From Patescibacteria group bacterium (GTDB lineage Bacteria; Patescibacteriota; Microgenomatia; UBA10105; UBA927), in assembly GCA_035510735.1 (NCBI GenBank), contig DATKGN010000013.1, positions 192,596 through 256,595 on the forward strand: a DNA stretch of 64,000 nt, written 5' to 3'. Below are positions 4,334 through 27,265 of this stretch, piece after piece (positions within the stretch are counted from its first letter, which is position 1; each line of letters opens with the position of its first letter). Position numbers and translations under genes: made by a program. The notes under the pieces are model-generated. The model did no database searches. It was not told the origin of the DNA and saw nothing but the letters and a program-made list of their open reading frames with translations.

Positions 4334-5005
4334 TTATTCCTCATTGTGTTCAAACAGAGTATCGGTTCCTAACTTTCTTGCCGTAACGAGTATATAATCT
4401 ATGCTAGGTGTATCTATCCATTCTTCCGCTTGTAATCTCCTTTGACTAAATGCCTGCGCAAGACTTTCTTTTGATGGGACTAAATCTTCCTTAAATTCTT
4501 CGCGCTCCCTGTGTTTTTTGTTTAATGCCTCGCGGGATAAATCATGTGCGATGATTAACCTGCCATTAGGTTTTAAAACGCGGGATATCTCACCTATTAA
4601 TCCGGGTATATCACTTTTAAAGTGCGGTAAAGCATTAAATATGATAACGGTATCATATGCATTGCCAGGAAGACCGGTTTCCTGAGCATCCGCCACTACA
4701 AATTTTACTTGATCAGCCATTCCTAACTCATCGGCTTTTGCTTTGGCTCCCGCAAGCATAACCGGAGACACGTCCAGTTCTGTCACAAAACCGATTCTCC
4801 CATTCTGCGCGAACGTCAGGAGGGTTCCTTTACCGCACGCAAGATCTAAAATTATCGCTCCGGGAGTAAAAACATTATGTTGTTCAAATATAGCAGTGAG
4901 ACGCTGTCTTTCAGCATCCCCCGTGAGAGGATTATCCCACGCATTTGTGTATCGTTGACCTACTCTATTCCACGTTTTTTCTGCTTCTACAGCTTCTGGT
5001 CTCAT
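4334..5005 (-). CDS. class I SAM-dependent methyltransferase
   Basis: Motif I ILDLACGKGTLL, motif II VIIFNALPHF, and motif post-II LKPNGRLII. Confidence 0.75.
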   Translation of the reverse strand: MRPEAVEAEKTWNRVGQRYTNAWDNPLTGDAERQRLTAIFEQHNVFTPGAIILDLACGKGTLLTFAQNGRIGFVTELDVSPVMLAGAKAKADELGMADQVKFVVADAQETGLPGNAYDTVIIFNALPHFKSDIPGLIGEISRVLKPNGRLIIAHDLSREALNKKHREREEFKEDLVPSKESLAQAFSQRRLQAEEWIDTPSIDYILVTARKLGTDTLFEHNEE

Positions 5006-6109: not shown

Positions 6110-6197
6110 AAAATTATCTCCCTTCATAATTTTTCCACATCTGAAGGTTTAATGCTGTAATTTGTCATACGTGCTAATTTGATATAATTCCATCATA

Positions 6198-7277
6198 TTG
6201 AAAAAATACTCAGTGCTGGTAATCCTCGTTTTAGTCATTATCTTTTTGTGGCTGATAGTTGGCTTGCGGAAAAACCAAAGCTTTACTAACGGCATTTTGC
6301 CTATACAATTTCAAGCAAAAACCGATTCCACTAAACCGACTCCCACACCAATACCTGCGTACGACCTGACCATCCCGTATTTGCGGTCACGGACATATAC
6401 AAGCAGCTTGGGAAGCCTCCAAAAGGTAAATGAATACGGGTCGTATACTTCATACGTGACGAGCTATACGTCTGACGGACTTAAGATCAATGGTTTACTT
6501 ACCAAGCCAAGCGGCATCGAACCCCCCGGCGGATGGCCGGGGATTGTTTTTGTCCACGGATACATCCCTCCGAAAACATATGAGACACTGGGACAACCAT
6601 ATTCCGCTTACGTCGATTATCTCGCCAAAAGCGGATTTGTCGTTTTTAAAATTGACCTCCGGGGCCATGGGGATTCACAGGGAGAAGCCCGGGGCGGATA
6701 TTACTCTTCGGATTATGTGATTGACACATTAAACGCGTATGCAGCACTTGCAACTGCAGATTTCGTAAACTCCAAGAAGATCGGAATGTGGGGACACAGC
6801 ATGGCCGGCAATACATTACTTCGGGCTTTTGTCGTCCGCCCCACCATCCCGGCTGTCGTGATTTGGGCAGGGGCAGGATACACCTATGTCGATCTTTCGC
6901 AGTATGGCCTCCATGACGCCAGCTATCAGCCGCTGCCGCGCCCCACCGGCGCATCAGGATCTGCGCAACAAAGGAATACTAATCAGGCAAGACAGATTTA
7001 CGGTGATCCGAGAAACGGTAACCCGTTTTGGAAATTGGTGGCAGCGACGAATTATCTCAATGATTTGAAAGGGGCAATCCAGCTTGATCAGGCAACGGAT
7101 GACCAAACAGTCAGTATCGAATATAGCCGGAATTTAAACATGCTATTAAACGCTACTTCAGTTGTGCATGAGTTTAATGAATTCCCAAGCGGCGGCCACA
7201 ACATATCCGGCGTCAATTTCACGGAAGCAATGAATAAAACCGTCGGGTTCTTTGACACATATCTAAAAGGAAAATAA
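6198..7277 (+). CDS. membrane-anchored alpha/beta hydrolase (S9 peptidase / dienelactone hydrolase-like)
   Basis: N-terminal TM segment, nucleophile elbow GHSMAG, and DLRGHGDS motif. Confidence 0.7.
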   Translation: MKKYSVLVILVLVIIFLWLIVGLRKNQSFTNGILPIQFQAKTDSTKPTPTPIPAYDLTIPYLRSRTYTSSLGSLQKVNEYGSYTSYVTSYTSDGLKINGLLTKPSGIEPPGGWPGIVFVHGYIPPKTYETLGQPYSAYVDYLAKSGFVVFKIDLRGHGDSQGEARGGYYSSDYVIDTLNAYAALATADFVNSKKIGMWGHSMAGNTLLRAFVVRPTIPAVVIWAGAGYTYVDLSQYGLHDASYQPLPRPTGASGSAQQRNTNQARQIYGDPRNGNPFWKLVAATNYLNDLKGAIQLDQATDDQTVSIEYSRNLNMLLNATSVVHEFNEFPSGGHNISGVNFTEAMNKTVGFFDTYLKGK

Positions 7278-7351
7278 GATTTCCGATCGATCATCCCAAG
7301 TCGTCATCCGGAGGTTAGACTTTATCTTTCAAGCAAGAAAGTGATGGTTCC

Positions 7352-7412
7352 CTCGACTCACGCTTGGGATTTCGCTTCCAAAATGAGTAGACGCTCAAAT
7401 TGCCAATCATGC
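7352..7412 (-). repeat. decayed duplicate of the 3' terminus of CDS 7805..8311
   Basis: cgcttgggatttcgcttccaaaatgagtagacgctcaaattgccaatca matches cgctcgggatttcgcttcaaagccagtagtcgctcaaattgtctatcg (7846-7896) at about 44/50 positions with one indel. In the gene's frame it reads QFERLLILEAKSQA*, versus QFERLLALKRNPERSEW in the real gene. Confidence 0.6.
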
Positions 7413-7508
7413 TGACAGGCATGGTGCAAACCAACAGGATAAATCTTATATAAATAACTCTAGGCTTGTTAAATATTGCAATATAGCGTACACTTGTATT
7501 TGCTAGGT

Positions 7509-7799
7509 ATGGAGAATAAAAAAGTCCTAATGGTTATCGGCGGTTTACTTCTTCTTGGAGTTGTTGCCTACGTAGCTTTCTTCTCAGGCAAGCAACAAGC
7601 AATACAAACCCAGGTTCAACCAGCTATGCAAGCCTCACCATCGACAACGTTGACAGAAACGCTAACACCTACGTTAACTTCAACACCAACCCCTACCTTG
7701 ACGTTAACGCCAACACCTACCACAACAAATAGTCCAACCCCCACACCAACAACCATGTCTTCTCCCACTCCCTCCTCGACACCTACCCCGACTCCTTAA
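7509..7799 (+). CDS. small membrane-anchored protein with Thr-Pro repeat tail
   Basis: MENKKVLMVIGGLLLLGVVAYVAFF followed by TPTLTSTPTPTLTLTPTPTT repeats. It sits between gene 7805..8311 and the decayed copy of that gene's 3' end. Confidence 0.4.
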   Translation: MENKKVLMVIGGLLLLGVVAYVAFFSGKQQAIQTQVQPAMQASPSTTLTETLTPTLTSTPTPTLTLTPTPTTTNSPTPTPTTMSSPTPSSTPTPTP

Positions 7800-7804
7800 A
7801 TAAT

Positions 7805-8311
7805 TTAAGTTATTTTTCCTAATTTGAACAAACGGTTATTCCACTCGCTTCGCTCGGGATTTCGCTTCAAAGCCAGTAGTCGCTCAAATTGTCTATCGCG
7901 CTCTTTGGCAGCCGCCGCTTCGGCATTCGTTGGGTTAGCGCGGAAAACTGCCTGCTGTGCGTAAATCGCAGAACCATACGCATGTCTCGGCACGTGGACA
8001 GTCGCAACAGCCTGACCGCATGCGCGGGCAGCGGATCTGGCCGGGCTATCCTCTCCCACATCACGGGCCGCGGCGTGCGAATCAAGCGACACCTTCCGAA
8101 TAACAGCCATCTTAAAGATTCCGTCACCTATCCATTTTTGAAGCGTTTCAATTGCCTTTCGGGGCCGATCATCATCGGGATATTTGTCTTCGAAGAATGG
8201 GAGAACGTGCTGGGCGCACTCAATTGCCCACTTGGCTAATACCTTGTGGTCTGTCTTTCCCACAAGCTCTAGCATTTCAGGATCTTTGTGTGTGATTACA
8301 AATTTTTTCAC
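7805..8311 (-). CDS. hypothetical all-alpha protein (possibly Imm5-like immunity-protein family; from memory only)
   Basis: 168-aa ORF. Its DNA is visibly more GC-rich than its flanks. A decayed duplicate of its 3' end lies at 7352-7412. Confidence 0.5.
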   Translation of the reverse strand: MKKFVITHKDPEMLELVGKTDHKVLAKWAIECAQHVLPFFEDKYPDDDRPRKAIETLQKWIGDGIFKMAVIRKVSLDSHAAARDVGEDSPARSAARACGQAVATVHVPRHAYGSAIYAQQAVFRANPTNAEAAAAKERDRQFERLLALKRNPERSEWNNRLFKLGKIT

Positions 8312-8616
8312 AGAAACTTATCTGCAAAAAGGCGGATTTCCTTGAGGATTGGGAGTATACCTGTGCCTTTCGGCGTCAATGAATACACGACTGATAATTT
8401 ATCCACCGTTTCTTCTTCCCGTTTGATAATCCCCTGCTTTTCAAGTCTTTTCAATCTACTGGTTAGCGTGGTCGGATTAACCCTGGAAATATCACGCTGG
8501 AGTTGGGCGAACCGTTTGTCTCCATCATGCAGCGCCTGAATGATCGCAAGCGTCCAGAAATCTCCAAGCATCTTGAGCTCCTTGTTAGAACATTTGTTGT
8601 GAACTTTGTTTGGCAT
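8308..8616 (-). CDS. HxlR-family winged-helix transcriptional regulator
   Basis: CSNKELKMLGDFWTLAIIQALHDGDKRFAQLQRDI...NPTTLTSRLKRLEKQGII. Confidence 0.8.
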   Translation of the reverse strand: MPNKVHNKCSNKELKMLGDFWTLAIIQALHDGDKRFAQLQRDISRVNPTTLTSRLKRLEKQGIIKREEETVDKLSVVYSLTPKGTGILPILKEIRLFADKFL

Positions 8617-8700
8617 ATTGACAGTACTATAAATATTGTAGTACTATAATTTATGTAGCAGTATATTACTACAGAAACGATTATAAAGTAAAGGCGTTTC
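8617..8700. promoter_or_regulatory. divergent promoter/operator region with palindromes GTACTATAAATATTGTAGTAC and TGTAGcagtatattaCTACA
   Basis: TTGACA-N17-TAGTACTATAAT promoter-like element at 8618-8650, and inverted repeats between the HxlR gene and the quinone reductase gene. Confidence 0.35.
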
Positions 8701-8781: not shown

Positions 8782-9714
8782 ATGAAAACAATACAATTTA
8801 ACGCATATGGTGGCCCCGAAGTGTTAGAATTTCGCGAAGACGCTCAACCCACACTCAAACCCGGACAGGTCCTCATAAAAAATAAAGCCGCAAGCATTAA
8901 TGCAATTGACTGGAAAGTCAGAGCGGGGTTCCTTCAGAAATTTATGCCGGTCACATTTCCCGCCACCATCGGTGGAGATTTCGCCGGCGTTGTCGTCGAA
9001 GTGAATGGAAACGATACCGGATTTAAAGTCGGCGACGAAGTATACGGACAGGCAATCATCTTAAACGGCGGATCAGGCACGATGGCAGAGTTTGTTGCCG
9101 CAAATGGCGCAAATACTGCAAAGAAACCCAAATCAATTAGCTTTAACGAAGCTGGTGCCCTACCGCTAGCCGGCGTCAGCGCAATCCAGGGACTTGAAGA
9201 ACACATTAAACTCAAAAAGGGCCAGAAAATACTTATCCACGGCGGAGCCGGAGGGATCGGGCATATGGCGATCCAGTACGCAAAGTCATTGGGTGCGTAT
9301 GTGGCAACAACAGCAAGCACCAAAGACGTAAAATTTGTGAAAAACTTGGGGGCAGATGAAGTCATAGATTATAAAACCCAAAAATTCGAACTAATCCTGA
9401 AAGATTACGACGCTGTGTTTGATACGGTTGGCGGGGAGACGTTGGATAAATCCTACGATGTCCTCAAAAAAGGCGGAATACTGGTATCTATGGGGCAGGT
9501 CGGAGATGAAACACTTGCCAAGGAACACGAAGTATCTGCCTTTGGACAAATGACCGTCACAGATACGGCACATTTAAATCATCTGACTCAATTAGTGGAG
9601 TCCGGAATCATTAAGGTGCATGTAGACAAAATGTTTCCGCTAATTAAGGCAAAAGAAGCATTTACGTATCAGGAAACAGGCCACCCGCAGGGAAAGGTCG
9701 TCGTCACCATATGA
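8782..9714 (+). CDS. NADPH:quinone oxidoreductase / zinc-type alcohol dehydrogenase-like (MDR family)
   Basis: MKTIQFNAYGGPEVLEF... with an NAD(P) binding site GGAGGIGHMAIQYAK. The ATG at 8782 is preferred over the track start at 8758. Confidence 0.8.
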   Translation: MKTIQFNAYGGPEVLEFREDAQPTLKPGQVLIKNKAASINAIDWKVRAGFLQKFMPVTFPATIGGDFAGVVVEVNGNDTGFKVGDEVYGQAIILNGGSGTMAEFVAANGANTAKKPKSISFNEAGALPLAGVSAIQGLEEHIKLKKGQKILIHGGAGGIGHMAIQYAKSLGAYVATTASTKDVKFVKNLGADEVIDYKTQKFELILKDYDAVFDTVGGETLDKSYDVLKKGGILVSMGQVGDETLAKEHEVSAFGQMTVTDTAHLNHLTQLVESGIIKVHVDKMFPLIKAKEAFTYQETGHPQGKVVVTI

Positions 9715-12893: not shown

Positions 12894-13637
12894 TCACTCA
12901 AGGATGCCTCTGCGGCGTTGGCGAATTTTGAGTGTCTCATTCAGTTCAGAGAGCACCAGACCGGCAAAAAGAGGCTCCTGTTGAAGTATTTCAATTAATG
13001 CTTTTTGAATGGAAAGATGAGTGGATGCATCCTCTGTGAAAAGAGGCCTTCCATTAAACGCGATGCTCATACTTGCTGCGTCATATTTGATTTCGGATGC
13101 ATACTCATGAATTTCATCGAGATGTCCGTCGCCACGAAAAAGATCAGCGTCGTGTTGAGACTGATCTACCGTGTGATATGTCACATGACCTTCATTCCTA
13201 TTTTGCCAGCGATCAATGAGCTCGTAGTTCCAGTCATAGAGAGCAAACTCTTGGATATAATCAACATGTTGTTCCCCAAAAAGATATAGATCAAAATCCG
13301 CGTTCACAACGTCATCGTAGATCATCGATCCGTAGACAAGAGGGACAACTCCATGTCTTTGTAGCATGCGGTGTTTCGGCTCAAAGAAATCCGTGAGTAT
13401 CTTCCATCCGATCGGCACTTCTGAGTGTTTAGCCTGTTCAGGCGGGATTGAATATTTTTGAAGTTGATCTGCTACAGAGTGAATGTTCTCAAGAGTATCA
13501 GGTTTTTGCATGAGACGGGCATACTCTTCCAACCGATCTACGTCAACACTCCCCCCATCAAGGACGCCCCGAAAGAACGCCCGATATGGAGGGGCGAACG
13601 TATTTAAATACTCTGAACCGGCTTCAGGGTGTGGCAT
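12894..13637 (-). CDS. nucleotidyltransferase-fold protein (Pol-beta-like NTase)
   Basis: LVYGSMIYDDVVNADFDLYLF fits the hG[GS]x9-13 D-x-D pattern. 247 aa; the C-terminal half is unassigned. Confidence 0.4.
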   Translation of the reverse strand: MPHPEAGSEYLNTFAPPYRAFFRGVLDGGSVDVDRLEEYARLMQKPDTLENIHSVADQLQKYSIPPEQAKHSEVPIGWKILTDFFEPKHRMLQRHGVVPLVYGSMIYDDVVNADFDLYLFGEQHVDYIQEFALYDWNYELIDRWQNRNEGHVTYHTVDQSQHDADLFRGDGHLDEIHEYASEIKYDAASMSIAFNGRPLFTEDASTHLSIQKALIEILQQEPLFAGLVLSELNETLKIRQRRRGILE

Positions 13638-13697
13638 CGGGCTATTATACCAAGCTAAATACGTATGGTCAAATTACTACAGGATATCATCAATATA

Positions 13698-13733
13698 TTC
13701 CACCTCGGAGGGTGGGAGTAAAATTCGAGGCTA
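13698..13733 (-). repeat. direct repeat TTCCACCYCGGAGnnGGGAGTAAAAwwCGAGGCTA, copy 2
   Basis: ttccacctcggagggtgggagtaaaattcgaggcta matches ttccaccccggagacgggagtaaaaaacgaggcta (14249-14283). The two copies flank CDS 13746..14189 exactly. Confidence 0.55.
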
Positions 13734-13745
13734 AAAACGCGTAAC

Positions 13746-14189
13746 TTATAGAGGAAATTTTTCCGCTTCAGTGGCTGGATGTGCAATCGGTGATTCTCTC
13801 AGGACTTTAACGACTGCCTCTAATACTTCCACACGTAAATCGAGATTTTCGGGATCTGTGTATATCCACGTCGTAAACTTTTCCAAAGCAGACTCTGGTT
13901 CTGCTGCAGAAGATTTATTAACCCGTGACAATATCATTGAGCGTTCGGGGGACAATGGTTTTGGCGCATATTCATCCAAGCTCATATCTATATACCGGAC
14001 AAATTCGGCCAGCGCGTGGCCCATCTCGTTCGAATGTATATCCGTTGACCCAACGCGAATGGATCCTTTTGCATCGACAACAACCCCGTTAAAAAGTTCG
14101 CCGAGAAGTTGCGGCGGTTTGTCGATAGCGATAATACGAAGGTCTTTATCGAGCGGTTCGCCAACTAATACTCCTTCAGGGTAAGTCAT
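13746..14189 (-). CDS. hypothetical protein (147 aa) flanked by 35-bp direct repeats
   Basis: MTYPEGVLVGEPLDKDLRIIAIDKP...; no motif recognised. Confidence 0.4.
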   Translation of the reverse strand: MTYPEGVLVGEPLDKDLRIIAIDKPPQLLGELFNGVVVDAKGSIRVGSTDIHSNEMGHALAEFVRYIDMSLDEYAPKPLSPERSMILSRVNKSSAAEPESALEKFTTWIYTDPENLDLRVEVLEAVVKVLRESPIAHPATEAEKFPL

Positions 14190-14248: not shown

Positions 14249-14283
14249 TAAAGAATCTTCCACCCCGGAGACGGGAGTAAAAA
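14249..14283 (-). repeat. direct repeat, copy 1 (see 13698-13733)
   Basis: About 30/35 identity to copy 2. Confidence 0.55.
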
Positions 14284-14384
14284 ACGAGGCTATTTCACCA
14301 CCGTTCTTTTGAAGACGCGCCCCTTCTTATCGTACGTGATCCTCCGCAACGAAAGAAGCATCGATTCGCGGCGTTTGATCATTG

Positions 14385-20456: not shown

Positions 20457-20550
20457 ACCTGTCCTGGAGTACCGAATTGATAGGTTCCTACTCAATATCC
20501 TCCGTAATCGCCCTTCCGCGGAATTGGGAAATATACAAATCGGACGGAAA
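20457..20550 (-). repeat. decayed copy B of ABC-exporter 3' terminus plus conserved downstream segment
   Basis: Minus-sense gatttgtatatttcccaattccgcggaagggcgattacggaggatattgagtag reads DLYISQFRGRAITEDIE*, versus DLYNSQFRGHAIVEEAE* in the real gene. It starts 15 nt after the stop of CDS 20555..21265. Confidence 0.7.
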
Positions 20551-20554
20551 TTCT

Positions 20555-21265
20555 TTACGAACTCGTTCCACTAGGTTTATCTTTCAACCATCTTCTGGAA
20601 GTATATATTAACCTGCCGTTAAACGGTCCGCTGTGATTAGGATCGAGTTTTGATAAATTCTCAACTAAAACCCTGTCATCCGCAGACAATTCATGCAACC
20701 TTTCCAGTAGGTTTTCCAATAAATTATTGTCATGAAAGTATCCCCGCAGGTGATACTTTTCACTCGATTGTTTGATTTTGTTCATGCTATCCTCTAAGGC
20801 TTGATATGTATCATCAGCAAGGAGCGTAAGCTGTTGAATCCGATAATCATCCTCATGTGTAAATCGAAACAACGCAATACTTGCGCCCATATATGTTCCG
20901 AGCATAACGGAGGGGTTTCTGATTGTGCCGATTATATAATCCGTTGATTGATGTAAAAGATTATTTTCTTCTGGGGTTCTTGAGGTTTTTGCACAAAGAG
21001 CTTCGCCCATCCACGCCATTGTTGTCATATTGCATTCTACTAATGATGAAACTACAACCACTTCGTCATCACTCTCAGTAGGAAACCTATCGACCAGAAT
21101 CTGAAGAACTTCAGTCGGTTTCTGCAAAAAAAATGATTCAACTTTAGCCCTGTATTCAAATGGACTGCGGGTTTTTAATAGATTATCGACCGATTGAGCA
21201 AGAGTTATAATATTTTGATCGTTTTGCGGAGGTAATATTTGCTTCGGAGCACCTTCATCTATCAT
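20555..21265 (-). CDS. hypothetical protein (236 aa), cassette gene
   Basis: MIDEGAPKQILPP...; no motif recognised. It is flanked by copies C and B. Confidence 0.45.
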   Translation of the reverse strand: MIDEGAPKQILPPQNDQNIITLAQSVDNLLKTRSPFEYRAKVESFFLQKPTEVLQILVDRFPTESDDEVVVVSSLVECNMTTMAWMGEALCAKTSRTPEENNLLHQSTDYIIGTIRNPSVMLGTYMGASIALFRFTHEDDYRIQQLTLLADDTYQALEDSMNKIKQSSEKYHLRGYFHDNNLLENLLERLHELSADDRVLVENLSKLDPNHSGPFNGRLIYTSRRWLKDKPSGTSS

Positions 21266-21299: not shown

Positions 21300-21395
21300 C
21301 AATTTCATCCTGACAGATGTACGAATTATTGTTTACAATTCCATAACCGCCCGGCCGCGGAATTGGGAATTGGAGAGGTCGGCGTATTTCATAAA
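21300..21395 (-). repeat. decayed copy C of ABC-exporter 3' terminus plus conserved downstream segment
   Basis: Minus-sense reads FMKYADLSNSQFRGRAVMEL*, followed by ACAATAATTCGTACATCTGTCAGGATGAAATTGGA. Copy E has the related GGAATAATAATTGTACATCCGAGGGACGGAATTGGA. Confidence 0.7.
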
Positions 21396-21451: not shown

Positions 21452-22723
21452 TTAAGAATCGAAGGAAGACAAAAAAGCATTTAACTTTTCCGATAATGCT
21501 TTCCAAAGTGGTTTGATTACAAACTTTGCTTCCTCATCAATTTCCGAACTGAATTGCGATGTTGCAATGGCGTACCTTTTTTCAAGTTCAGTTTTCATAT
21601 AACGCAAACTATTTTGTGCCTGAGGAGATACAGATTCCGGAAGTAATCCCAATGCGGTAAGGGCGTAGAAAAAAGTCAAAGCATCTCTTCTTAACGAAGG
21701 TAATACTACTGTTTCAAGTGATTCGCCTGAATGCGTATCTTTACGATCAATTTCCACGGCAGGCATGACTACATCCTCAGATCCGTTTAAAATTTTTTCT
21801 GCAACAGACTCCGACAAATAGTTTAGAGCATCTCGATACGTTGGTATTTCCTGAACCCTGTCTGTTGGATCAAGTTTTTTTAACCCATAACCATATGGAT
21901 TATTTTTTGTAGCCATATCCATATATATTGAATATAGGCCATCCGGAGTTGTAAGAACACCGTCATAACAGGCAACAGTCATTGAATCTCTGCTTATTAC
22001 CTGTCTTTCTGGGTGTCGAATAAATTTACCCAATTTTTTTATTGTTTCTTCGTTCACTTCTTTGGCAACCCTAAATTGTCCCTCAATATACTTTGCATCT
22101 AAACCCAACGTGTAGAGTTGTCTTTTGATTGAATAAACTGTTTCTTTATTTGAATCGGTTATAGAAAATCTTACGGTATGAAGCGAGGTGTCGTTATATA
22201 AAGTTATATCACGCTTCGAAACGTCCTGAAGATGCTGAAGAAGTTTAACAACTATTGCTTCAGTTCCTTTCGGAACAGTAGTGGATGTATATATTTTTTG
22301 TTCACGCCGTAAATGCGGAATTAATGCGGAAACCACATCATCGTAATCATATGAAGTCCCGTCTTGTCTGTTGCCGCTTATATCAAACGGGTCAGACGCC
22401 CAATAGAGTGCGACCCGTTCAGGCAGATACTTCGCGTATTTTGTAGCAAATTGAGTGAATGACTCAAAATCAAAACCTGATGTAATTTTACGTTTAACAT
22501 CAAAACTACACCATGGGCAACCTCCAGTACAACCATCTGTAAATTGTAGATGCTGCATACCTTTTAATAGGGATTGTCTGACCGGTTCGGGGAAGGCCTC
22601 AAACATTTGGAGAATGTCAACAGGATCTCTGTTCCTCCTCATCTCTATGAGAGAATATATTCTGTCTGTTATTGGGAAATTGTTTGATTGGGGTGTTAGA
22701 TCTGATTGTCGTGATTCCGGCAT
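21452..22723 (-). CDS. putative radical SAM protein (atypical; CTGGCPWC = Cx3Cx2C)
   Basis: 423 aa with the single cluster QFTDGCTGGCPWCSFD at residues about 60-75. No SPASM or second cluster. C-terminal 150 aa is helical. Confidence 0.45.
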   Translation of the reverse strand: MPESRQSDLTPQSNNFPITDRIYSLIEMRRNRDPVDILQMFEAFPEPVRQSLLKGMQHLQFTDGCTGGCPWCSFDVKRKITSGFDFESFTQFATKYAKYLPERVALYWASDPFDISGNRQDGTSYDYDDVVSALIPHLRREQKIYTSTTVPKGTEAIVVKLLQHLQDVSKRDITLYNDTSLHTVRFSITDSNKETVYSIKRQLYTLGLDAKYIEGQFRVAKEVNEETIKKLGKFIRHPERQVISRDSMTVACYDGVLTTPDGLYSIYMDMATKNNPYGYGLKKLDPTDRVQEIPTYRDALNYLSESVAEKILNGSEDVVMPAVEIDRKDTHSGESLETVVLPSLRRDALTFFYALTALGLLPESVSPQAQNSLRYMKTELEKRYAIATSQFSSEIDEEAKFVIKPLWKALSEKLNAFLSSFDS

Positions 22724-22794: not shown

Positions 22795-22850
22795 TCTGTT
22801 CCGAACTCTCCGTAATCGCTCTCCCCCGAAACTGGCTGTTATAAGGGTGG
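22795..22850 (-). repeat. decayed copy D of ABC-exporter 3' terminus
   Basis: Minus-sense reads HPYNSQFRGRAITESSEQ; about 60 nt upstream of the radical SAM start. Confidence 0.65.
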
Positions 22851-22930
22851 GCGTGTTCAGATGAGCCTATAGTTGACTTTTGAAAACTACTTCCTATAAT
22901 TGAGAATAACTTGTTTCTATTTTAGATTGT

Positions 22931-25303: not shown

Positions 25304-27265
25304 TTACTCTGCTTCCTCAACGATAGCGTGTCCGCGGAATTGGGAGTTATACAAATCAGCATAGAAGCCTTTTTGGGCAAGGAGCCTTTTATGTGTCCCC
25401 TTCTCTATAATTGCCCCGTGATTCATGACGAGGATGAGATCGGCGTCGCGGATGGTTGAGAGCCGGTGGGCGATGACAAAACTCGTCCTACCCTTCATAA
25501 GCTTCCCCATGGCTTCCTGAATAAGAAGTTCAGTCCGGGTATCGACGCTGCTCGTTGCTTCATCAAGGATAAGGATCTCGGGATCAGCCAGGAACGCACG
25601 GGCGATAGTGAGAAGTTGTTTCTGGCCTTGGGAAATGTTCGTGGCGTCCTCGTTTAACACCATCTTGTAGCCCTCAGGAAGCGTCCGTATAAAGTGGTCG
25701 GCGTAGGCCTCTTTTGAAGCCAATACGATTTCTTCCTCCGTTGCATCTTCGCGGCCGTAAGCGATATTATCCCGGAGCGTCCCATGGAAAAGCCAGGTAT
25801 CCTGTAAGACCATACCGAACATTCGGCGAAGATCGGCGCGTTTGAGTTTTGTGATATCAACGCCGTCAACCAAAATTTTTCCGCCGTTCACTTCGTAGAA
25901 ACGCATGAGTAAATTAACGAGGGTCGTCTTGCCGGCTCCGGTCGGTCCCACAATGGCGATCATATGACCCGGTTTTACATCAATATTCATATCTTCAATG
26001 AGGATCTTATCTTTGCTGTATCCGAATTTGACGTGCTCGAATTTGACGGCACCCTTTGGTTCTTTGATAACCTCAGGTTTGGCTATTTCCTTGACCTGTT
26101 CTTCCTCATCCAAAAGCTCAAAAACCCGCTCGGCGGAGGCGATTGCGGACTGGATGACGTTTGCGATATTGGCAAGCATGGTGATGGGCTGGGAAAATGA
26201 AGAAGAATACTGGATAAATGCCTGCACGTCACCGATTGAAATGGCGCCCTGTGTGGCCATGATGCCACCGACGACTGCGACGAGGACGTAGCCAACGTTA
26301 CCGACAAACCGCATGAGCGGCATGATGATACCGGAAACAAATTGCGCCTGCCATCCGGCTTCATAAAGGCTGTTATTGAACACATCAAACTGGGCGATCG
26401 CTTTGTGTTCATGCCCGAACGCTTTGACGATCTTGTGCCCCGAATACATTTCTTCGACGTGACCGTTTAAGTCACCGAGTGACCGTTGCTGTTTCCGGAA
26501 GAAATCCTGTGAGCGTTTCGCAATACCGGTCACGACAAATATGCTAAGAGGAAGTGTTGCAAGCACGATGAGTGTTAGCTGCCAGCTAATTGAGAGCATC
26601 ATGATAAGAACACCGATGAGAGATACGACGGAGGTAATAAGCTGCGTCACGCTCTGCTGGAGCGTCGAGCCGATGTTATCCATATCGTTAACCGCGCGGC
26701 TTAAAATTTCTCCGTGCGTACGCCCGTCGAAGTATTTGAGCGGCAATCGCGAGAGTTTTTCATCCACCTCTCGGCGCAATTTGTAGATCGTACGCTGCGC
26801 AACACCTGCCATCAGGAATTGCTGGATGAAAATAAAAACAGAGCTTATGACATAGAGTCCGAGCAAAATAAGAAGAACCCTTCCGATATAGCCGAATTCG
26901 ATGCCGGGAACGGGCGCCAGATGGAGAGGAAGTGTGGGGTTCGCAAGCAATTGCTTTTGGACGACGGAATTTTTTACCTGCACGATGAAACTCGCAAGCA
27001 AATCATTGAAAAGCTTGGTGGTCGCGAGTCCCAATATTTTCGGGCCCACAATGTTAAATATCGTACCCATGATGGCTGAGATAACGACGATCGAAAGGAG
27101 AGTTTTTTCCGGTCGGAAATATCCTAACAGTCTCTTGAGTGTCCCCCCGAAATCTTTTGCCTTCTCGACCGGCCTGCCCATAGCACCCCAGCCGCCCCGA
27201 TTCATGGGGTTCGCATGCACTTCATCACGCGGTTTATTTTTTAGTTTGGTTGCGTCATCACTCAT
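25304..27265 (-). CDS. ABC exporter, fused permease/ATP-binding subunit (MdlB/MsbA-like)
   Basis: 653 aa: 6-TM domain then an NBD with Walker A GPTGAGKTT, LSGGQ-like ISQGQKQLLTIARA, and Walker B ILILDEATS. Confidence 0.9.
   Translation of the reverse strand: MSDDATKLKNKPRDEVHANPMNRGGWGAMGRPVEKAKDFGGTLKRLLGYFRPEKTLLSIVVISAIMGTIFNIVGPKILGLATTKLFNDLLASFIVQVKNSVVQKQLLANPTLPLHLAPVPGIEFGYIGRVLLILLGLYVISSVFIFIQQFLMAGVAQRTIYKLRREVDEKLSRLPLKYFDGRTHGEILSRAVNDMDNIGSTLQQSVTQLITSVVSLIGVLIMMLSISWQLTLIVLATLPLSIFVVTGIAKRSQDFFRKQQRSLGDLNGHVEEMYSGHKIVKAFGHEHKAIAQFDVFNNSLYEAGWQAQFVSGIIMPLMRFVGNVGYVLVAVVGGIMATQGAISIGDVQAFIQYSSSFSQPITMLANIANVIQSAIASAERVFELLDEEEQVKEIAKPEVIKEPKGAVKFEHVKFGYSKDKILIEDMNIDVKPGHMIAIVGPTGAGKTTLVNLLMRFYEVNGGKILVDGVDITKLKRADLRRMFGMVLQDTWLFHGTLRDNIAYGREDATEEEIVLASKEAYADHFIRTLPEGYKMVLNEDATNISQGQKQLLTIARAFLADPEILILDEATSSVDTRTELLIQEAMGKLMKGRTSFVIAHRLSTIRDADLILVMNHGAIIEKGTHKRLLAQKGFYADLYNSQFRGHAIVEEAE

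What the first reader, a model, noticed from the sequence alone, without database searches (positions are those of the whole stretch)
7352..7896. Second instance of the gene / small cassette / old-3'-end architecture at CDS 7805..8311
The last about 50 nt of the GC-rich gene 7805..8311 (encoding ...RDRQFERLLALKRNPERSEW...) reappear, at about 44/50 identity with one indel, at 7352-7412. There they translate in the same sense as QFERLLILEAKSQA*. The 435 bp between the real and decayed ends holds only the small Thr-Pro-tailed membrane ORF 7509..7799.

Two independent loci in one 64-kb window therefore show cargo inserted between a gene's functional 3' end and a decaying duplicate of it. That argues for a general end-targeting integration or exchange mechanism in this genome rather than a one-off event.
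Basis: seen in the sequence. Interest (0 to 1): 0.6.

Follow-up and report, generated by a model that had tools for sequence, protein, structure and literature searches.

The report
Displaced old gene end beside insert
About 490 bases downstream of an intact small gene lies a dead, frameshifted copy of that gene's last 25-34 codons, with one small membrane-protein gene wedged in between: a real scar of past gene acquisition in a candidate-phyla bacterium, of a kind already known elsewhere, whose mechanism cannot be fixed from this sequence.

Summary
Window 7348-7413 matches the 3' end of CDS 7805..8311 (7839-7902) at 50/62 alignment columns. The local score is 56, against 21.2 +/- 2.4 in 1000 shuffles (maximum 33). 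The gene is an Imm5_like protein, translationally coupled to an upstream HxlR regulator.

The downstream copy is a relic, not a decayed copy of the present end:
- It shares the lineage-specific QFERLL..KRNP with the live gene.
- It keeps a Trp found in all 119 homologues, which the live gene has lost.
- It carries one +1 frameshift.

The 385-bp insert holds a real small gene. Homologues in two related genomes sit next to a cupredoxin gene.

A second locus behaves the same way. The ABC exporter gene 25304..27265 has three in-frame tail relics downstream. Two of five related genomes (six loci) also carry such relics, with different boundaries.

The best reading is that recombination brought in a foreign allele end plus a neighbouring gene and displaced the native 3' end. 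No recombinase or nuclease was found. Sixty-four other Imm5_like loci show no comparable relic. A general end-targeting mechanism is therefore not shown.

This is a new member of a known kind of genome scar, of moderate-to-low interest.

The parts
7805..8311 (-). Intact Imm5_like gene (168 aa, GTG start). Its start overlaps the HxlR stop codon (GTGA).
   Evidence: Pfam PF21805 at E 1.3e-40. It is 64-72% identical to the 22 non-redundant homologues aligned from many phyla (BLASTP 68-75% over the top 120). The overlap with HxlR can be read.
7839..7902 (-). Live copy of the repeated segment, the last ~30 codons of the gene (..RDRQFERLLALKRNPERSEW..).
   Evidence: Alignments. It has Arg where 119/119 homologues have Trp.
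7317..7419 (-). Relic of an Imm5_like 3' end, reading (E)(R)DWQFERLLIL, then a +1 frameshift, then KRNPKRE.. up to TAA. Similarity is robust over 7348-7413. The extension to 7317 and 7419 is inferred.
   Evidence: It shares the lineage-specific QFERLL..KRNP with the live gene only. It lies 40 nt from the stop of the convergent hydrolase gene.
7420..7508 (.). AT-rich spacer upstream of the small ORF. It has no homology to the gene family or to relatives. Several assemblies break at 7439-7468.
   Evidence: No + strand promoter-like hit was found upstream of the small ORF.
7509..7799 (+). Cargo: a small membrane protein (96 aa; one N-terminal TM helix plus a Thr/Pro-rich tail), convergent with the Imm5_like gene. 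The two stop codons are 5 nt apart.
   Evidence: Homologues occur in L108 (6463..6756; 56% over 66 aa) and L110 (8352..8639). Each lies 6-7 nt downstream of a cupredoxin gene. No Pfam family.
8308..8616 (-). HxlR-type regulator upstream of, and co-oriented with, the Imm5_like gene.
   Evidence: Pfam PF01638 at E 2e-19. HxlR is absent from all 80 other Imm5_like loci.
6198..7277 (+). Alpha/beta hydrolase, convergent with the relic. It is probably the native downstream neighbour of the old gene end.
   Evidence: Pfam. Relatives at 70-86% aa identity have unrelated genes downstream.
25304..27265 (-). Parallel case: a conserved ABC exporter gene with tail ..FYADLYNSQFRGHAIVEEAE*.
   Evidence: Pfam. 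It is 80-93% identical across Patescibacteria.
22799..22855 (-). ABC tail relic c (HAHPYNSQFRGRAITESSE).
   Evidence: E 1e-4. It differs from the live tail by 7 synonymous and 2 non-synonymous codon changes.
21339..21386 (-). ABC tail relic b (YADLSNSQFRGRAVME, then L*). It lies 66 nt after the 423-aa ORFan gene.
   Evidence: E 2.6e-6.
20491..20559 (-). ABC tail relic a (RKEFPSDLYISQFRGRAITEDIE, then stop). It abuts the stop codon of the 236-aa ORFan gene.
   Evidence: E 2.2e-6. Its tail resembles those of orthologues P0246 and P0261.

Best explanation
The relic at 7317-7419 is the displaced native 3' end of an Imm5_like gene that once ended 40 nt from the convergent hydrolase gene.

A piece of DNA from a related donor carried a diverged copy of the same gene, or at least its 3' part. 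Directly behind it came the donor's neighbour, the small membrane-protein gene 7509..7799. This DNA was recombined in. One crossover used homology inside or upstream of the gene. The other junction, at about 7419/7420, fell inside the last ~34 codons of the resident gene. That junction came either from an illegitimate join or from single-crossover (Campbell-type) insertion of a circular fragment.

The gene stayed intact, now with a foreign end. The cargo came in behind it. The resident end was left stranded and later picked up one +1 frameshift.

Shown: the repeat, its family identity, its polarity (the relic carries the ancestral Trp), its frameshift, the reality of the cargo gene and its presence at other loci, and the same architecture at the ABC exporter here and in relatives.

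Inferred: the donor, the crossover positions and the recombination pathway.
For: 1. The repeat is real and highly non-random.
2. Both copies share QFERLL..KRNP, which none of 119 homologues has. They are therefore sister alleles, not chance family matches.
3. The relic keeps the invariant Trp of ERDWQ and the live gene has Arg, so the relic was not copied from the present end.
4. Homology starts sharply at the ERDWQ codons (7419). It probably ends at the stop codon, where each copy meets a different context: the hydrolase for the relic and the cargo for the live end.
5. A single extra G accounts for the broken frame.
6. The cargo gene has homologues in related genomes at a different locus, next to cupredoxin, downstream of the ABC exporter. 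It therefore does move between contexts.
7. Imm5_like genes also move between contexts. They have no conserved neighbours in 80 loci, and in L112 one sits 12 nt after the ABC exporter stop.
8. The ABC exporter shows the same pattern three times in the window, and again in L108 and L110. Relic c differs mostly by synonymous changes, relic a resembles other natural alleles, and the relic boundaries vary. This fits allele-end replacement by recombination.
9. No integrase or nuclease gene is present.
10. No second Imm5_like copy occurs in 80 other loci, which argues against a tandem-paralogue origin.
Against: No donor and no 'empty site' relative could be found. All contigs carrying these genes are 100% identical to the window. 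The nearest hydrolase relatives (70-86% aa) have no synteny here. The direction and the single-event nature of the change are therefore inferred.

Four of the five ABC relics begin within about 10 codons of each other (YADLY). That clustering is tighter than random illegitimate joins would predict. It hints at a preferred site, or at relics acting as inherited homology arms.

The last ~14 codons of the relic align only weakly with the live end.
Confidence: 0.55

Rival explanations
1. This is a remnant of a site-specific integrative element. An integrase-bearing element inserted into the 3' end of the Imm5_like gene and brought its own replacement end (attL/attR duplication). Deletions then reduced it to about 0.4 kb holding one small gene.
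For: The topology (gene, cargo, duplicated 3' end in direct orientation) is exactly that of attL/attR. Serial relics behind the ABC exporter resemble tandem accretion at a single att site, and three or four of them start near the same codons. In L091/L095 a ~97% identical direct repeat of about 85-95 nt starts 12 nt before an Imm5_like stop codon and brackets a 1.6-kb, two-gene insert.
Against: No integrase, transposase or recombinase domain was found in about 60 ORFs of the window. No conserved sequence flanks the relics beyond the coding tail. The longest exact run shared by the two Imm5 copies is 13 nt. The L108 relic spans ~72 codons while others span ~15-23, so there is no fixed att boundary. 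Sixty-four other Imm5_like loci lack relics, and no Imm5_like gene occurs in IMG/VR.
Confidence: 0.15
2. This is decay of a tandem paralogue. Two Imm5_like genes once stood in tandem, as immunity genes often do. A later insertion-deletion replaced the first ~134 codons of the distal copy with the small-ORF segment.
For: Immunity-protein genes of polymorphic toxin systems commonly form arrays (own knowledge; Zhang et al. 2012, PMC3482391, listed). The two copies are each other's closest relatives.
Against: None of the 80 other Imm5_like loci has a second copy or fragment. This route needs two events rather than one, and the insert must end 5 nt after the live gene's stop. The ABC exporter relics cannot be explained this way, since three 1.9-kb paralogues would each have to be trimmed to ~50-70 nt.
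Confidence: 0.15
3. This is endonuclease-driven end replacement, as seen for mobile ORFs in fungal mitochondria. A free-standing homing nuclease cut near the gene's end. Repair from a nuclease-bearing allele co-converted a foreign C-terminus and left the native one downstream. The nuclease gene has since been lost.
For: The architecture matches the atp6, atp9, cox2 and nad3 gene hybrids (inserted C-terminus, mobile ORF, native C*-terminus; mostly synonymous divergence) described in PMC3630166 and PMC6279837. In L110 the ABC relic directly abuts a GIY-YIG gene.
Against: No nuclease domain lies in or near the Imm5 cargo or in the window's ABC cassettes. The L110 GIY-YIG protein is only 100 aa and sits 3.6 kb from the ABC gene. 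The ORFan cargo proteins could not be modelled (pLDDT 41).
Confidence: 0.08
4. The match is chance similarity or an assembly chimera.
For: None beyond the short length of the match.
Against: 0 of 1000 shuffles reach the score. The copies share lineage-specific codons. Four independent assemblies span the region identically.
Confidence: 0.01

Closest known systems
Gene hybrids made by mobile endonuclease ORFs in fungal mitochondria (Allomyces atp6; Glomus atp6/atp9/cox2/nad3)
   Same: A conserved gene keeps a functional but foreign C-terminal coding end. Inserted DNA follows it. The native C-terminal segment survives downstream as an unexpressed relic. The divergence between the two ends predates the event and is largely synonymous (PMC3630166; PMC6279837).
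   Different: Here the inserted DNA carries no recognisable endonuclease. The cargo is a small membrane-protein gene on the opposite strand. The host is a Patescibacteria chromosome, not an organelle.
attL/attR duplications of integrative elements that target the 3' ends of genes (tRNA, tmRNA or protein-coding genes), including tandem accretion
   Same: There is a direct repeat of the target gene's 3' end on both sides of the acquired DNA. The gene is kept intact by an element-borne replacement end. Serial relics appear where events repeat (own knowledge; ICE review PMC5812530, listed).
   Different: There is no integrase and no conserved att arms. Relic lengths vary between events. The insert is only ~0.4 kb.
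Homology-facilitated illegitimate recombination, or 'recombination at the border', during uptake of foreign DNA (de Vries & Wackernagel 2002; Prudhomme et al. 2002; cited in the reference list of PMC2884548)
   Same: One homologous anchor in a shared gene plus one illegitimate junction traps adjacent foreign DNA. This predicts variable junction positions and needs no dedicated recombinase.
   Different: The classical cases were defined experimentally and usually delete recipient DNA. Here the pathway is only inferred from the scar, and the donor is unknown.
Displaced 'orphan' modules of polymorphic toxin loci (rhs, cdiA, maf)
   Same: New 3' modules recombine onto a conserved gene and push older ends downstream. 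Imm5 is an immunity family of such systems (PMC3482391).
   Different: No toxin gene lies nearby. The repeated part is the same short tail, not alternative toxin domains preceded by a conserved homology block.

Membership tests
Imm5_like protein family (PF21805): live gene and relic | Significant match to the family profile, and the conserved C-terminal motif ER[DENQ]WQ..LL.L | tested here: met
   The live gene scores E 1.3e-40, 138.7 bits against a cut-off of 25. The relic encodes (Q)(H)DWQFERLLIL, with the Trp present in 119/119 homologues.
Site-specific integrative element (attL/attR) | An integrase or recombinase gene within or next to the insert | tested here: not met
   No such Pfam domain was found in about 60 ORFs across the 64-kb window. 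No NCBIfam or PHROG hits for the cargo ORFs.
Site-specific integrative element (attL/attR) | An identical core at both ends, and the same target boundary in independent events | tested here: not met
   The longest exact shared run is 13 nt. ABC relic boundaries range from ~15 to ~72 codons. However, three window relics start within ~8 codons of each other.
Site-specific integrative element (attL/attR) | An empty site or an excised form in relatives or the population | not testable with these tools
   All retrievable contigs are identical to the window. Assembly forks at 7439-7468 in four samples hint at a variant, but reads cannot be accessed.
Mobile endonuclease ORF with C-terminal duplication (fungal mitochondrial type) | A functional inserted C-terminus in frame with the gene core, plus a native C-terminal relic downstream | tested here: met
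   The 168-codon ORF is intact with a family-like tail. The relic lies 490 nt downstream with a frameshift.
Mobile endonuclease ORF with C-terminal duplication (fungal mitochondrial type) | A LAGLIDADG or GIY-YIG endonuclease ORF between the two C-termini | tested here: not met
   The only ORF between the copies is a 96-aa TM/Thr-Pro protein with no family hit. A GIY-YIG gene occurs only beside the L110 ABC relic.
Homology-facilitated illegitimate recombination or Campbell-type recombinational insertion | A donor segment homologous to the recipient gene (the anchor) with contiguous foreign DNA | tested here: inconclusive
   The two ends are sister alleles at ~80% identity, and the cargo gene exists at other loci in relatives. 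No donor sequence was found.
Homology-facilitated illegitimate recombination or Campbell-type recombinational insertion | An illegitimate junction with microhomology between donor and recipient | not testable with these tools
   Testing this needs the donor and the pre-insertion recipient sequence. Neither is available.
Integron gene cassette | attC sites bounding the cassette, and an IntI/attI platform | tested here: not met
   No inverted-repeat attC-like site lies at the cargo ends. There is no integrase in the window. The repeats are coding tails of the adjacent gene.
Polymorphic-toxin orphan/displaced module array | An adjacent toxin gene whose variable C-terminal domains are displaced along with their immunity genes | tested here: not met
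   The neighbours are HxlR, a Zn-ADH-type oxidoreductase, an FMN reductase and a hydrolase. There is no toxin domain.

The most novel reading that the evidence does not exclude
Patescibacteria of this group may build their flexible gene tracts by a cassette-accretion process aimed at the 3' ends of conserved genes. Stranded tail relics would then serve as portable right-hand homology arms, so that a cassette could be exchanged between genomes by two homologous crossovers, one in the gene body and one in the relic. Alternatively, one of the ORFan cargo proteins could be an unrecognised end-targeting nuclease or recombinase. Either version would explain serial relics with similar start points behind the ABC exporter, and the same architecture at the Imm5_like gene.
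Probability: 0.12. Interest if true: 0.7.

Novelty: new member of a known kind. Interest (0 to 1): 0.35.

Why it matters
Candidate-phyla (Patescibacteria) genomes are small, and how they gain genes is poorly understood. Recognisable mobile elements are scarce in them; none was seen in this window.

A stranded gene end marks exactly where foreign DNA was joined in and in which direction. With the ABC-exporter relics here and in two related genomes, it points to the ends of conserved genes as recurrent entry points for new genes in this lineage.

It also carries practical warnings:
- The 3' ends of such genes may be foreign, so they can mislead phylogenies.
- Short relic ORFs should not be annotated as genes.

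If a dedicated mechanism lies behind the pattern, it would be new. On present evidence it is an ordinary recombination scar.

Tried and rejected
- **Exact-protein look-ups.** Look-ups for the Imm5_like, small-ORF, hydrolase and HxlR proteins returned only contigs 100% identical to the window, so there was no variant or empty site.
- **Hydrolase relatives.** A genome-collection scan and look-ups of hydrolase relatives (70-86% aa) found no synteny downstream, so no ancestral state could be read.
- **Relic scan of other Imm5_like loci.** In 80 metagenomic loci, only L059 (a near-perfect tandem duplication of the gene's repeat-rich 3' end, at a contig end) and L091/L095 (an ~85-95-nt intergenic direct repeat) scored. 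Neither is a coding-tail relic of this kind.
- **IMG/VR scan.** It found no Imm5_like gene.
- **Repeat 13695-13733 / 14255-14292.** I rejected it as a third instance. Both copies lie about 58-100 nt upstream of the start codons of two minus-strand genes, so it is a repeated leader or promoter, not a gene end.
- **Larger tandem duplication.** Rejected.
- **Relic as a structured RNA or terminator.** The fold is only modest (z -2.3 on the + strand, -1.1 on the - strand). There was no Rfam hit and no terminator call in the relic or spacer.
- **L091 repeat motif.** A search for it in the window found nothing.
- **Cargo ORFans.** There were no Pfam, NCBIfam, PHROG or PDB hits. Single-sequence AlphaFold models of the 236-aa and 423-aa proteins had pLDDT 41, so no fold search was run.
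- **Cupredoxin remnant upstream of the small ORF.** None was found.
- **Primary HFIR paper.** The paper (PMC122324) is not held in the library.
Full report
**1. What was checked**

The finding claims that the last ~50 nt of the minus-strand gene 7805..8311 recur at 7352-7412, with only the small ORF 7509..7799 in between. Reading the sequence and the ORF list confirms the layout.

The repeat finder reports two adjacent blocks: 7361-7381 against 7851-7871, and 7379-7413 against 7868-7902. They are offset by one base. MAFFT and a local aligner join them into one alignment. That alignment has 50 identical positions in 62 columns (80.6%) and 4 gap columns.

The score of 56 compares with 21.2 +/- 2.4 in 1000 dinucleotide-preserving shuffles of the 3 kb downstream. 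The largest shuffle score is 33. The same test on all 137 window ORFs of at least 80 codons gave a mean of 22 and sd of 5.2, with this locus at the top.

It is not part of a larger tandem duplication, because nothing else in 7000-8700 is repeated. It is not an assembly artefact, because four independent assemblies cover the whole region at 100% identity.

**2. What the pieces are**

- **The gene.** It is a member of the Imm5_like family (PF21805, E 1.3e-40). Its GTG start overlaps the stop codon of an upstream HxlR-type regulator (GTGA).
- **The family.** It is widespread and well conserved, with 1694 proteins at E<=1e-10. The best 120 are 68-75% identical by BLASTP and include proteins labelled as archaeal and as Candidatus Curtissbacteria.
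- **The host.** It is a Patescibacteria (candidate phyla radiation) bacterium. The identical ABC protein P0241 is labelled 'Patescibacteria group bacterium', and hydrolase relatives come from Patescibacteria, Levyibacteriota, Daviesbacteria and Microgenomates.
- **The left neighbour.** To the left of the relic, 40 nt away and convergent, an alpha/beta hydrolase gene ends at 7277.

**3. The downstream copy is a relic of a sister allele, not a decayed copy of the present end**

On the minus strand the copy reads ..CQHDWQFERLLILEAKSQA*.

All 119 non-identical homologues carry ER[DENQ/Y]WQ at this point. The Trp is present in every one of them. The live gene alone has Arg (ERDRQ), while the relic has Trp.

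Conversely, 'QFERLL' and the following 'KRNP' occur in both window copies and in none of the 119 homologues. The two copies are therefore each other's closest relatives, yet the relic cannot have been copied from the live end as it now stands.

Removing a single G (TTTTGG against TTT-G) puts the relic into the live gene's frame. It then reads LLILKRNPKRESREPSLSCLKDKV and ends at TAA exactly 20 codons after 'LLxL', as the live gene does. The strong similarity covers the first ~19 codons (7348-7419). The rest aligns weakly, which fits a tail that varies across the family.

Homology starts abruptly at the ERDWQ codons (7419/7420). It probably ends at the stop codons. Beyond them each copy has its own context: the hydrolase for the relic, and the cargo for the live end.

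**4. The cargo**

The ORF 7509..7799 encodes an N-terminal membrane helix followed by a Thr/Pro-rich tail. It is a real gene.

Homologues with the same N-terminus lie in two related genomes: L108 at 6463..6756 (56% over 66 residues) and L110 at 8352..8639. In each case the homologue sits 6-7 nt downstream of a cupredoxin gene, in the variable region behind the ABC exporter.

The similarity begins at the start codon, not upstream of it. The window contains no cupredoxin remnant. The cargo gene therefore occurs in different contexts in related genomes.

**5. Relatives of the locus**

Every contig that encodes the exact Imm5_like, small-ORF, hydrolase or HxlR protein is identical to the window. 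The next Imm5_like relative is only 75% identical.

Hydrolase relatives have unrelated genes downstream:

| Hydrolase relative (aa identity) | Gene downstream |
|---|---|
| 86% | TPR-like gene |
| 78% | 2H-phosphodiesterase-like gene |
| 76% | DUF1697 gene |
| 70% | gene of unknown function |

No empty site and no donor is available. That is the main limit on this analysis.

Four assemblies break at 7439-7468, 20-50 nt from the relic boundary, while four others run through. This suggests a co-occurring variant in some samples. It could not be followed up without access to the reads.

**6. Is there a general phenomenon?**

*Within the window.* A protein-level scan compared the last 45 residues of each of 100 ORFs with the 6 kb downstream. 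Only two genes have tail relics: the Imm5_like gene and the ABC exporter 25304..27265.

The exporter's tail, FYADLYNSQFRGHAIVEEAE*, recurs three times downstream, each time in frame:
- relic c, YNSQFRGRAITESSE, at 22799-22855;
- relic b, YADLSNSQFRGRAVME(L*), at 21339-21386;
- relic a, DLYISQFRGRAITEDIE*, at 20491-20559.

They are separated by ORFan genes of 423 and 236 codons and by a 2.4-kb segment.

Relic c differs from the live tail and from relics a and b mainly by synonymous codon changes, for example 7 synonymous against 2 non-synonymous over the 10 core codons. For relics a and b the counts are roughly even, 2-3 of each. Relic a resembles the live tails of orthologues in other lineages, such as RGRAITEDVG and RGRAITEDME. 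At least some of these relics therefore look like ends that were once functional in other alleles.

*In relatives.* The exporter is a conserved gene (80-93% identity). In four of the six related loci the upstream neighbourhood is conserved (membrane-fusion protein and/or MarR genes before the ABC pair), whereas the downstream side differs in every lineage.
- L108 (93% identity) has a frameshifted relic of the last ~72 codons, behind one convergent gene.
- L110 has a relic of the last ~15 codons plus the stop, abutting a GIY-YIG gene.
- L109, L111 (a shorter contig of the L110 lineage), L112 and L113/L114 have none.
- In L112 an Imm5_like gene sits 12 nt behind the exporter.

*Against generality.* In 80 other Imm5_like loci there are no conserved neighbours and no second fragments. 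Among the 64 with more than 300 nt downstream, there is no cargo-separated tail relic. Two loci showed other kinds of repeat: a tandem duplication in L059, and a direct repeat of about 85-95 nt bracketing a two-gene insert in L091/L095.

Both window loci lie in one tract, about 7.3-25.3 kb, that is rich in ORFs with no family match.

No integrase, transposase or homing nuclease domain was found in about 60 ORFs.

**7. Most likely mechanism**

The simplest account is a single recombination event. DNA from a related donor carried a diverged Imm5_like gene end and its convergent neighbour, the small membrane-protein gene. One side joined by homology within the gene. The other side joined inside the resident gene's last ~34 codons, through an illegitimate junction or through Campbell-type insertion of a circular fragment.

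The gene remained intact with a foreign end. The native end was stranded next to its old neighbour, the hydrolase, and later suffered one frameshift.

The variable relic lengths at the ABC exporter, the absence of a recombinase, and the allele-like, largely synonymous divergence of relic c all fit this account. I give it about 0.55.

The rivals are:
- a decayed site-specific element (0.15), supported by topology and by the clustered start points of three or four ABC relics;
- decay of a tandem paralogue (0.15), weakened by 0 of 80 loci having tandem copies and by the ABC case;
- a lost homing endonuclease (0.08);
- chance or artefact (0.01).

**8. Comparison with what is known**

The closest described analogue is the gene hybrids made by mobile endonuclease ORFs in fungal mitochondria. 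There a foreign C-terminus and the mobile ORF are inserted, and the native C*-terminus is left downstream, unexpressed. Inserted and native ends share only 63.5% nucleotide identity but 91% amino-acid identity (PMC3630166; see also PMC6279837).

The topology is also that of attL/attR duplications of elements that target gene 3' ends. The proposed pathway is that of homology-facilitated illegitimate recombination (references in PMC2884548).

The present case fails the defining tests for an integrase element and for an endonuclease ORF (no enzyme gene). It can only be said to work like these systems. I classify it as a new member of a known kind of scar.

**9. Verdict**

Interest is 0.35.

The most novel reading not excluded is a relic-guided or enzyme-driven cassette accretion at the ends of conserved genes in Patescibacteria. 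I give it about 0.12.

Noticed in passing
window 20491-20559, 21339-21386, 22799-22855 (relics); 25304-27265 (gene): Three in-frame relics of the ABC exporter's last 16-23 codons lie downstream of the intact gene, separated by ORFan genes. Relic c differs from the live tail mostly by synonymous codon changes, and relic a resembles tails of orthologues in other lineages.
   Followed up: yes
L108 5073-5257; L110 9540-9604: Related Patescibacteria genomes also carry ABC-tail relics downstream of their exporter genes. L108 has ~72 codons, frameshifted, behind one convergent gene. L110 has ~15 codons plus the stop, abutting a 100-aa GIY-YIG gene (9253..9555).
   Followed up: partly
L112 11927-12394: In a genome whose ABC exporter is 85% identical, an Imm5_like gene (155 aa; 60% identical to the window's) starts 12 nt after the exporter's stop. 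The family belongs to the same flexible gene pool.
   Followed up: partly
window 7439-7468: Contigs from four independent assemblies end in this interval, 20-50 nt from the relic boundary (SRR8695230, SRR8676592, SRR8676594, JGI 3300038458). In SRR8695230 the left and right contigs overlap by exactly 30 nt (k-1). Four other assemblies run through. This suggests a co-occurring structural variant.
   Followed up: partly
L026 1007-1037 (joins window at 8264): One MEGAHIT contig follows the window from 9269 down to 8264 (codon ~16 of the Imm5_like gene). It then continues with 31 unrelated bases not found anywhere in the window. This could be a variant or a chimeric end.
   Followed up: no
window 7886-7888 (codon 140 of gene 7805..8311): The live Imm5_like protein has Arg where all 119 retrieved homologues have Trp (ERDWQ). 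This lies right at the upstream limit of the relic homology.
   Followed up: partly
window 13695-13733 and 14255-14292: A 38-nt direct repeat (TTCCACCYCGGAG..GGGAGTAAAA..CGAGGCTA) lies about 58-100 nt upstream of the starts of two adjacent minus-strand ORFan genes (12894..13637 and 13746..14189). It is probably a repeated promoter or leader.
   Followed up: partly
L091 and L095, about 4462-4545 and 6162-6245: A ~97% identical direct repeat of about 85-95 nt begins 12 nt before an Imm5_like stop codon. It brackets a 1.6-kb insert holding a 177-aa membrane protein and a 215-aa TM/Thr-Pro-linker protein. The repeat contains two 24-nt sub-repeats (TTGAGGCTAAAnCAAAGCTGsGGG).
   Followed up: partly
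L059 2590-2804: A near-perfect duplication of the repeat-rich 3' end of an Imm5_like gene lies ~125-155 nt downstream, at the contig end. The region holds tandem GCGAGTTTGCGAGTAGC units.
   Followed up: no
window 21452-22723 (-): This 423-aa ORFan cargo protein contains a CxxxCxxC motif (GCTGGCPWC), reminiscent of radical-SAM enzymes. It has no Pfam, NCBIfam, PHROG or PDB match, and the single-sequence AlphaFold model was unusable.
   Followed up: partly
window 20514-20523: Relic a contains a perfect 10-nt palindrome, TTCCGCGGAA. The live ABC tail has the 8-nt palindrome TCCGCGGA at the same position. This is the best-conserved core of the four copies.
   Followed up: no
window 7294-7304 and 7361-7371: An inverted repeat (ATCCCAAGTCG / CGCTTGGGAT) pairs the spacer after the hydrolase stop with part of the relic. 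The + strand fold has z = -2.3. It may be a leftover bidirectional terminator.
   Followed up: partly
L108 6463-7185; L110 8352-9089: A small TM/Thr-Pro protein gene follows a cupredoxin gene by 6-7 nt in two related genomes, so the two form a conserved gene pair. The window's copy (7509..7799) stands alone, without a cupredoxin gene.
   Followed up: partly
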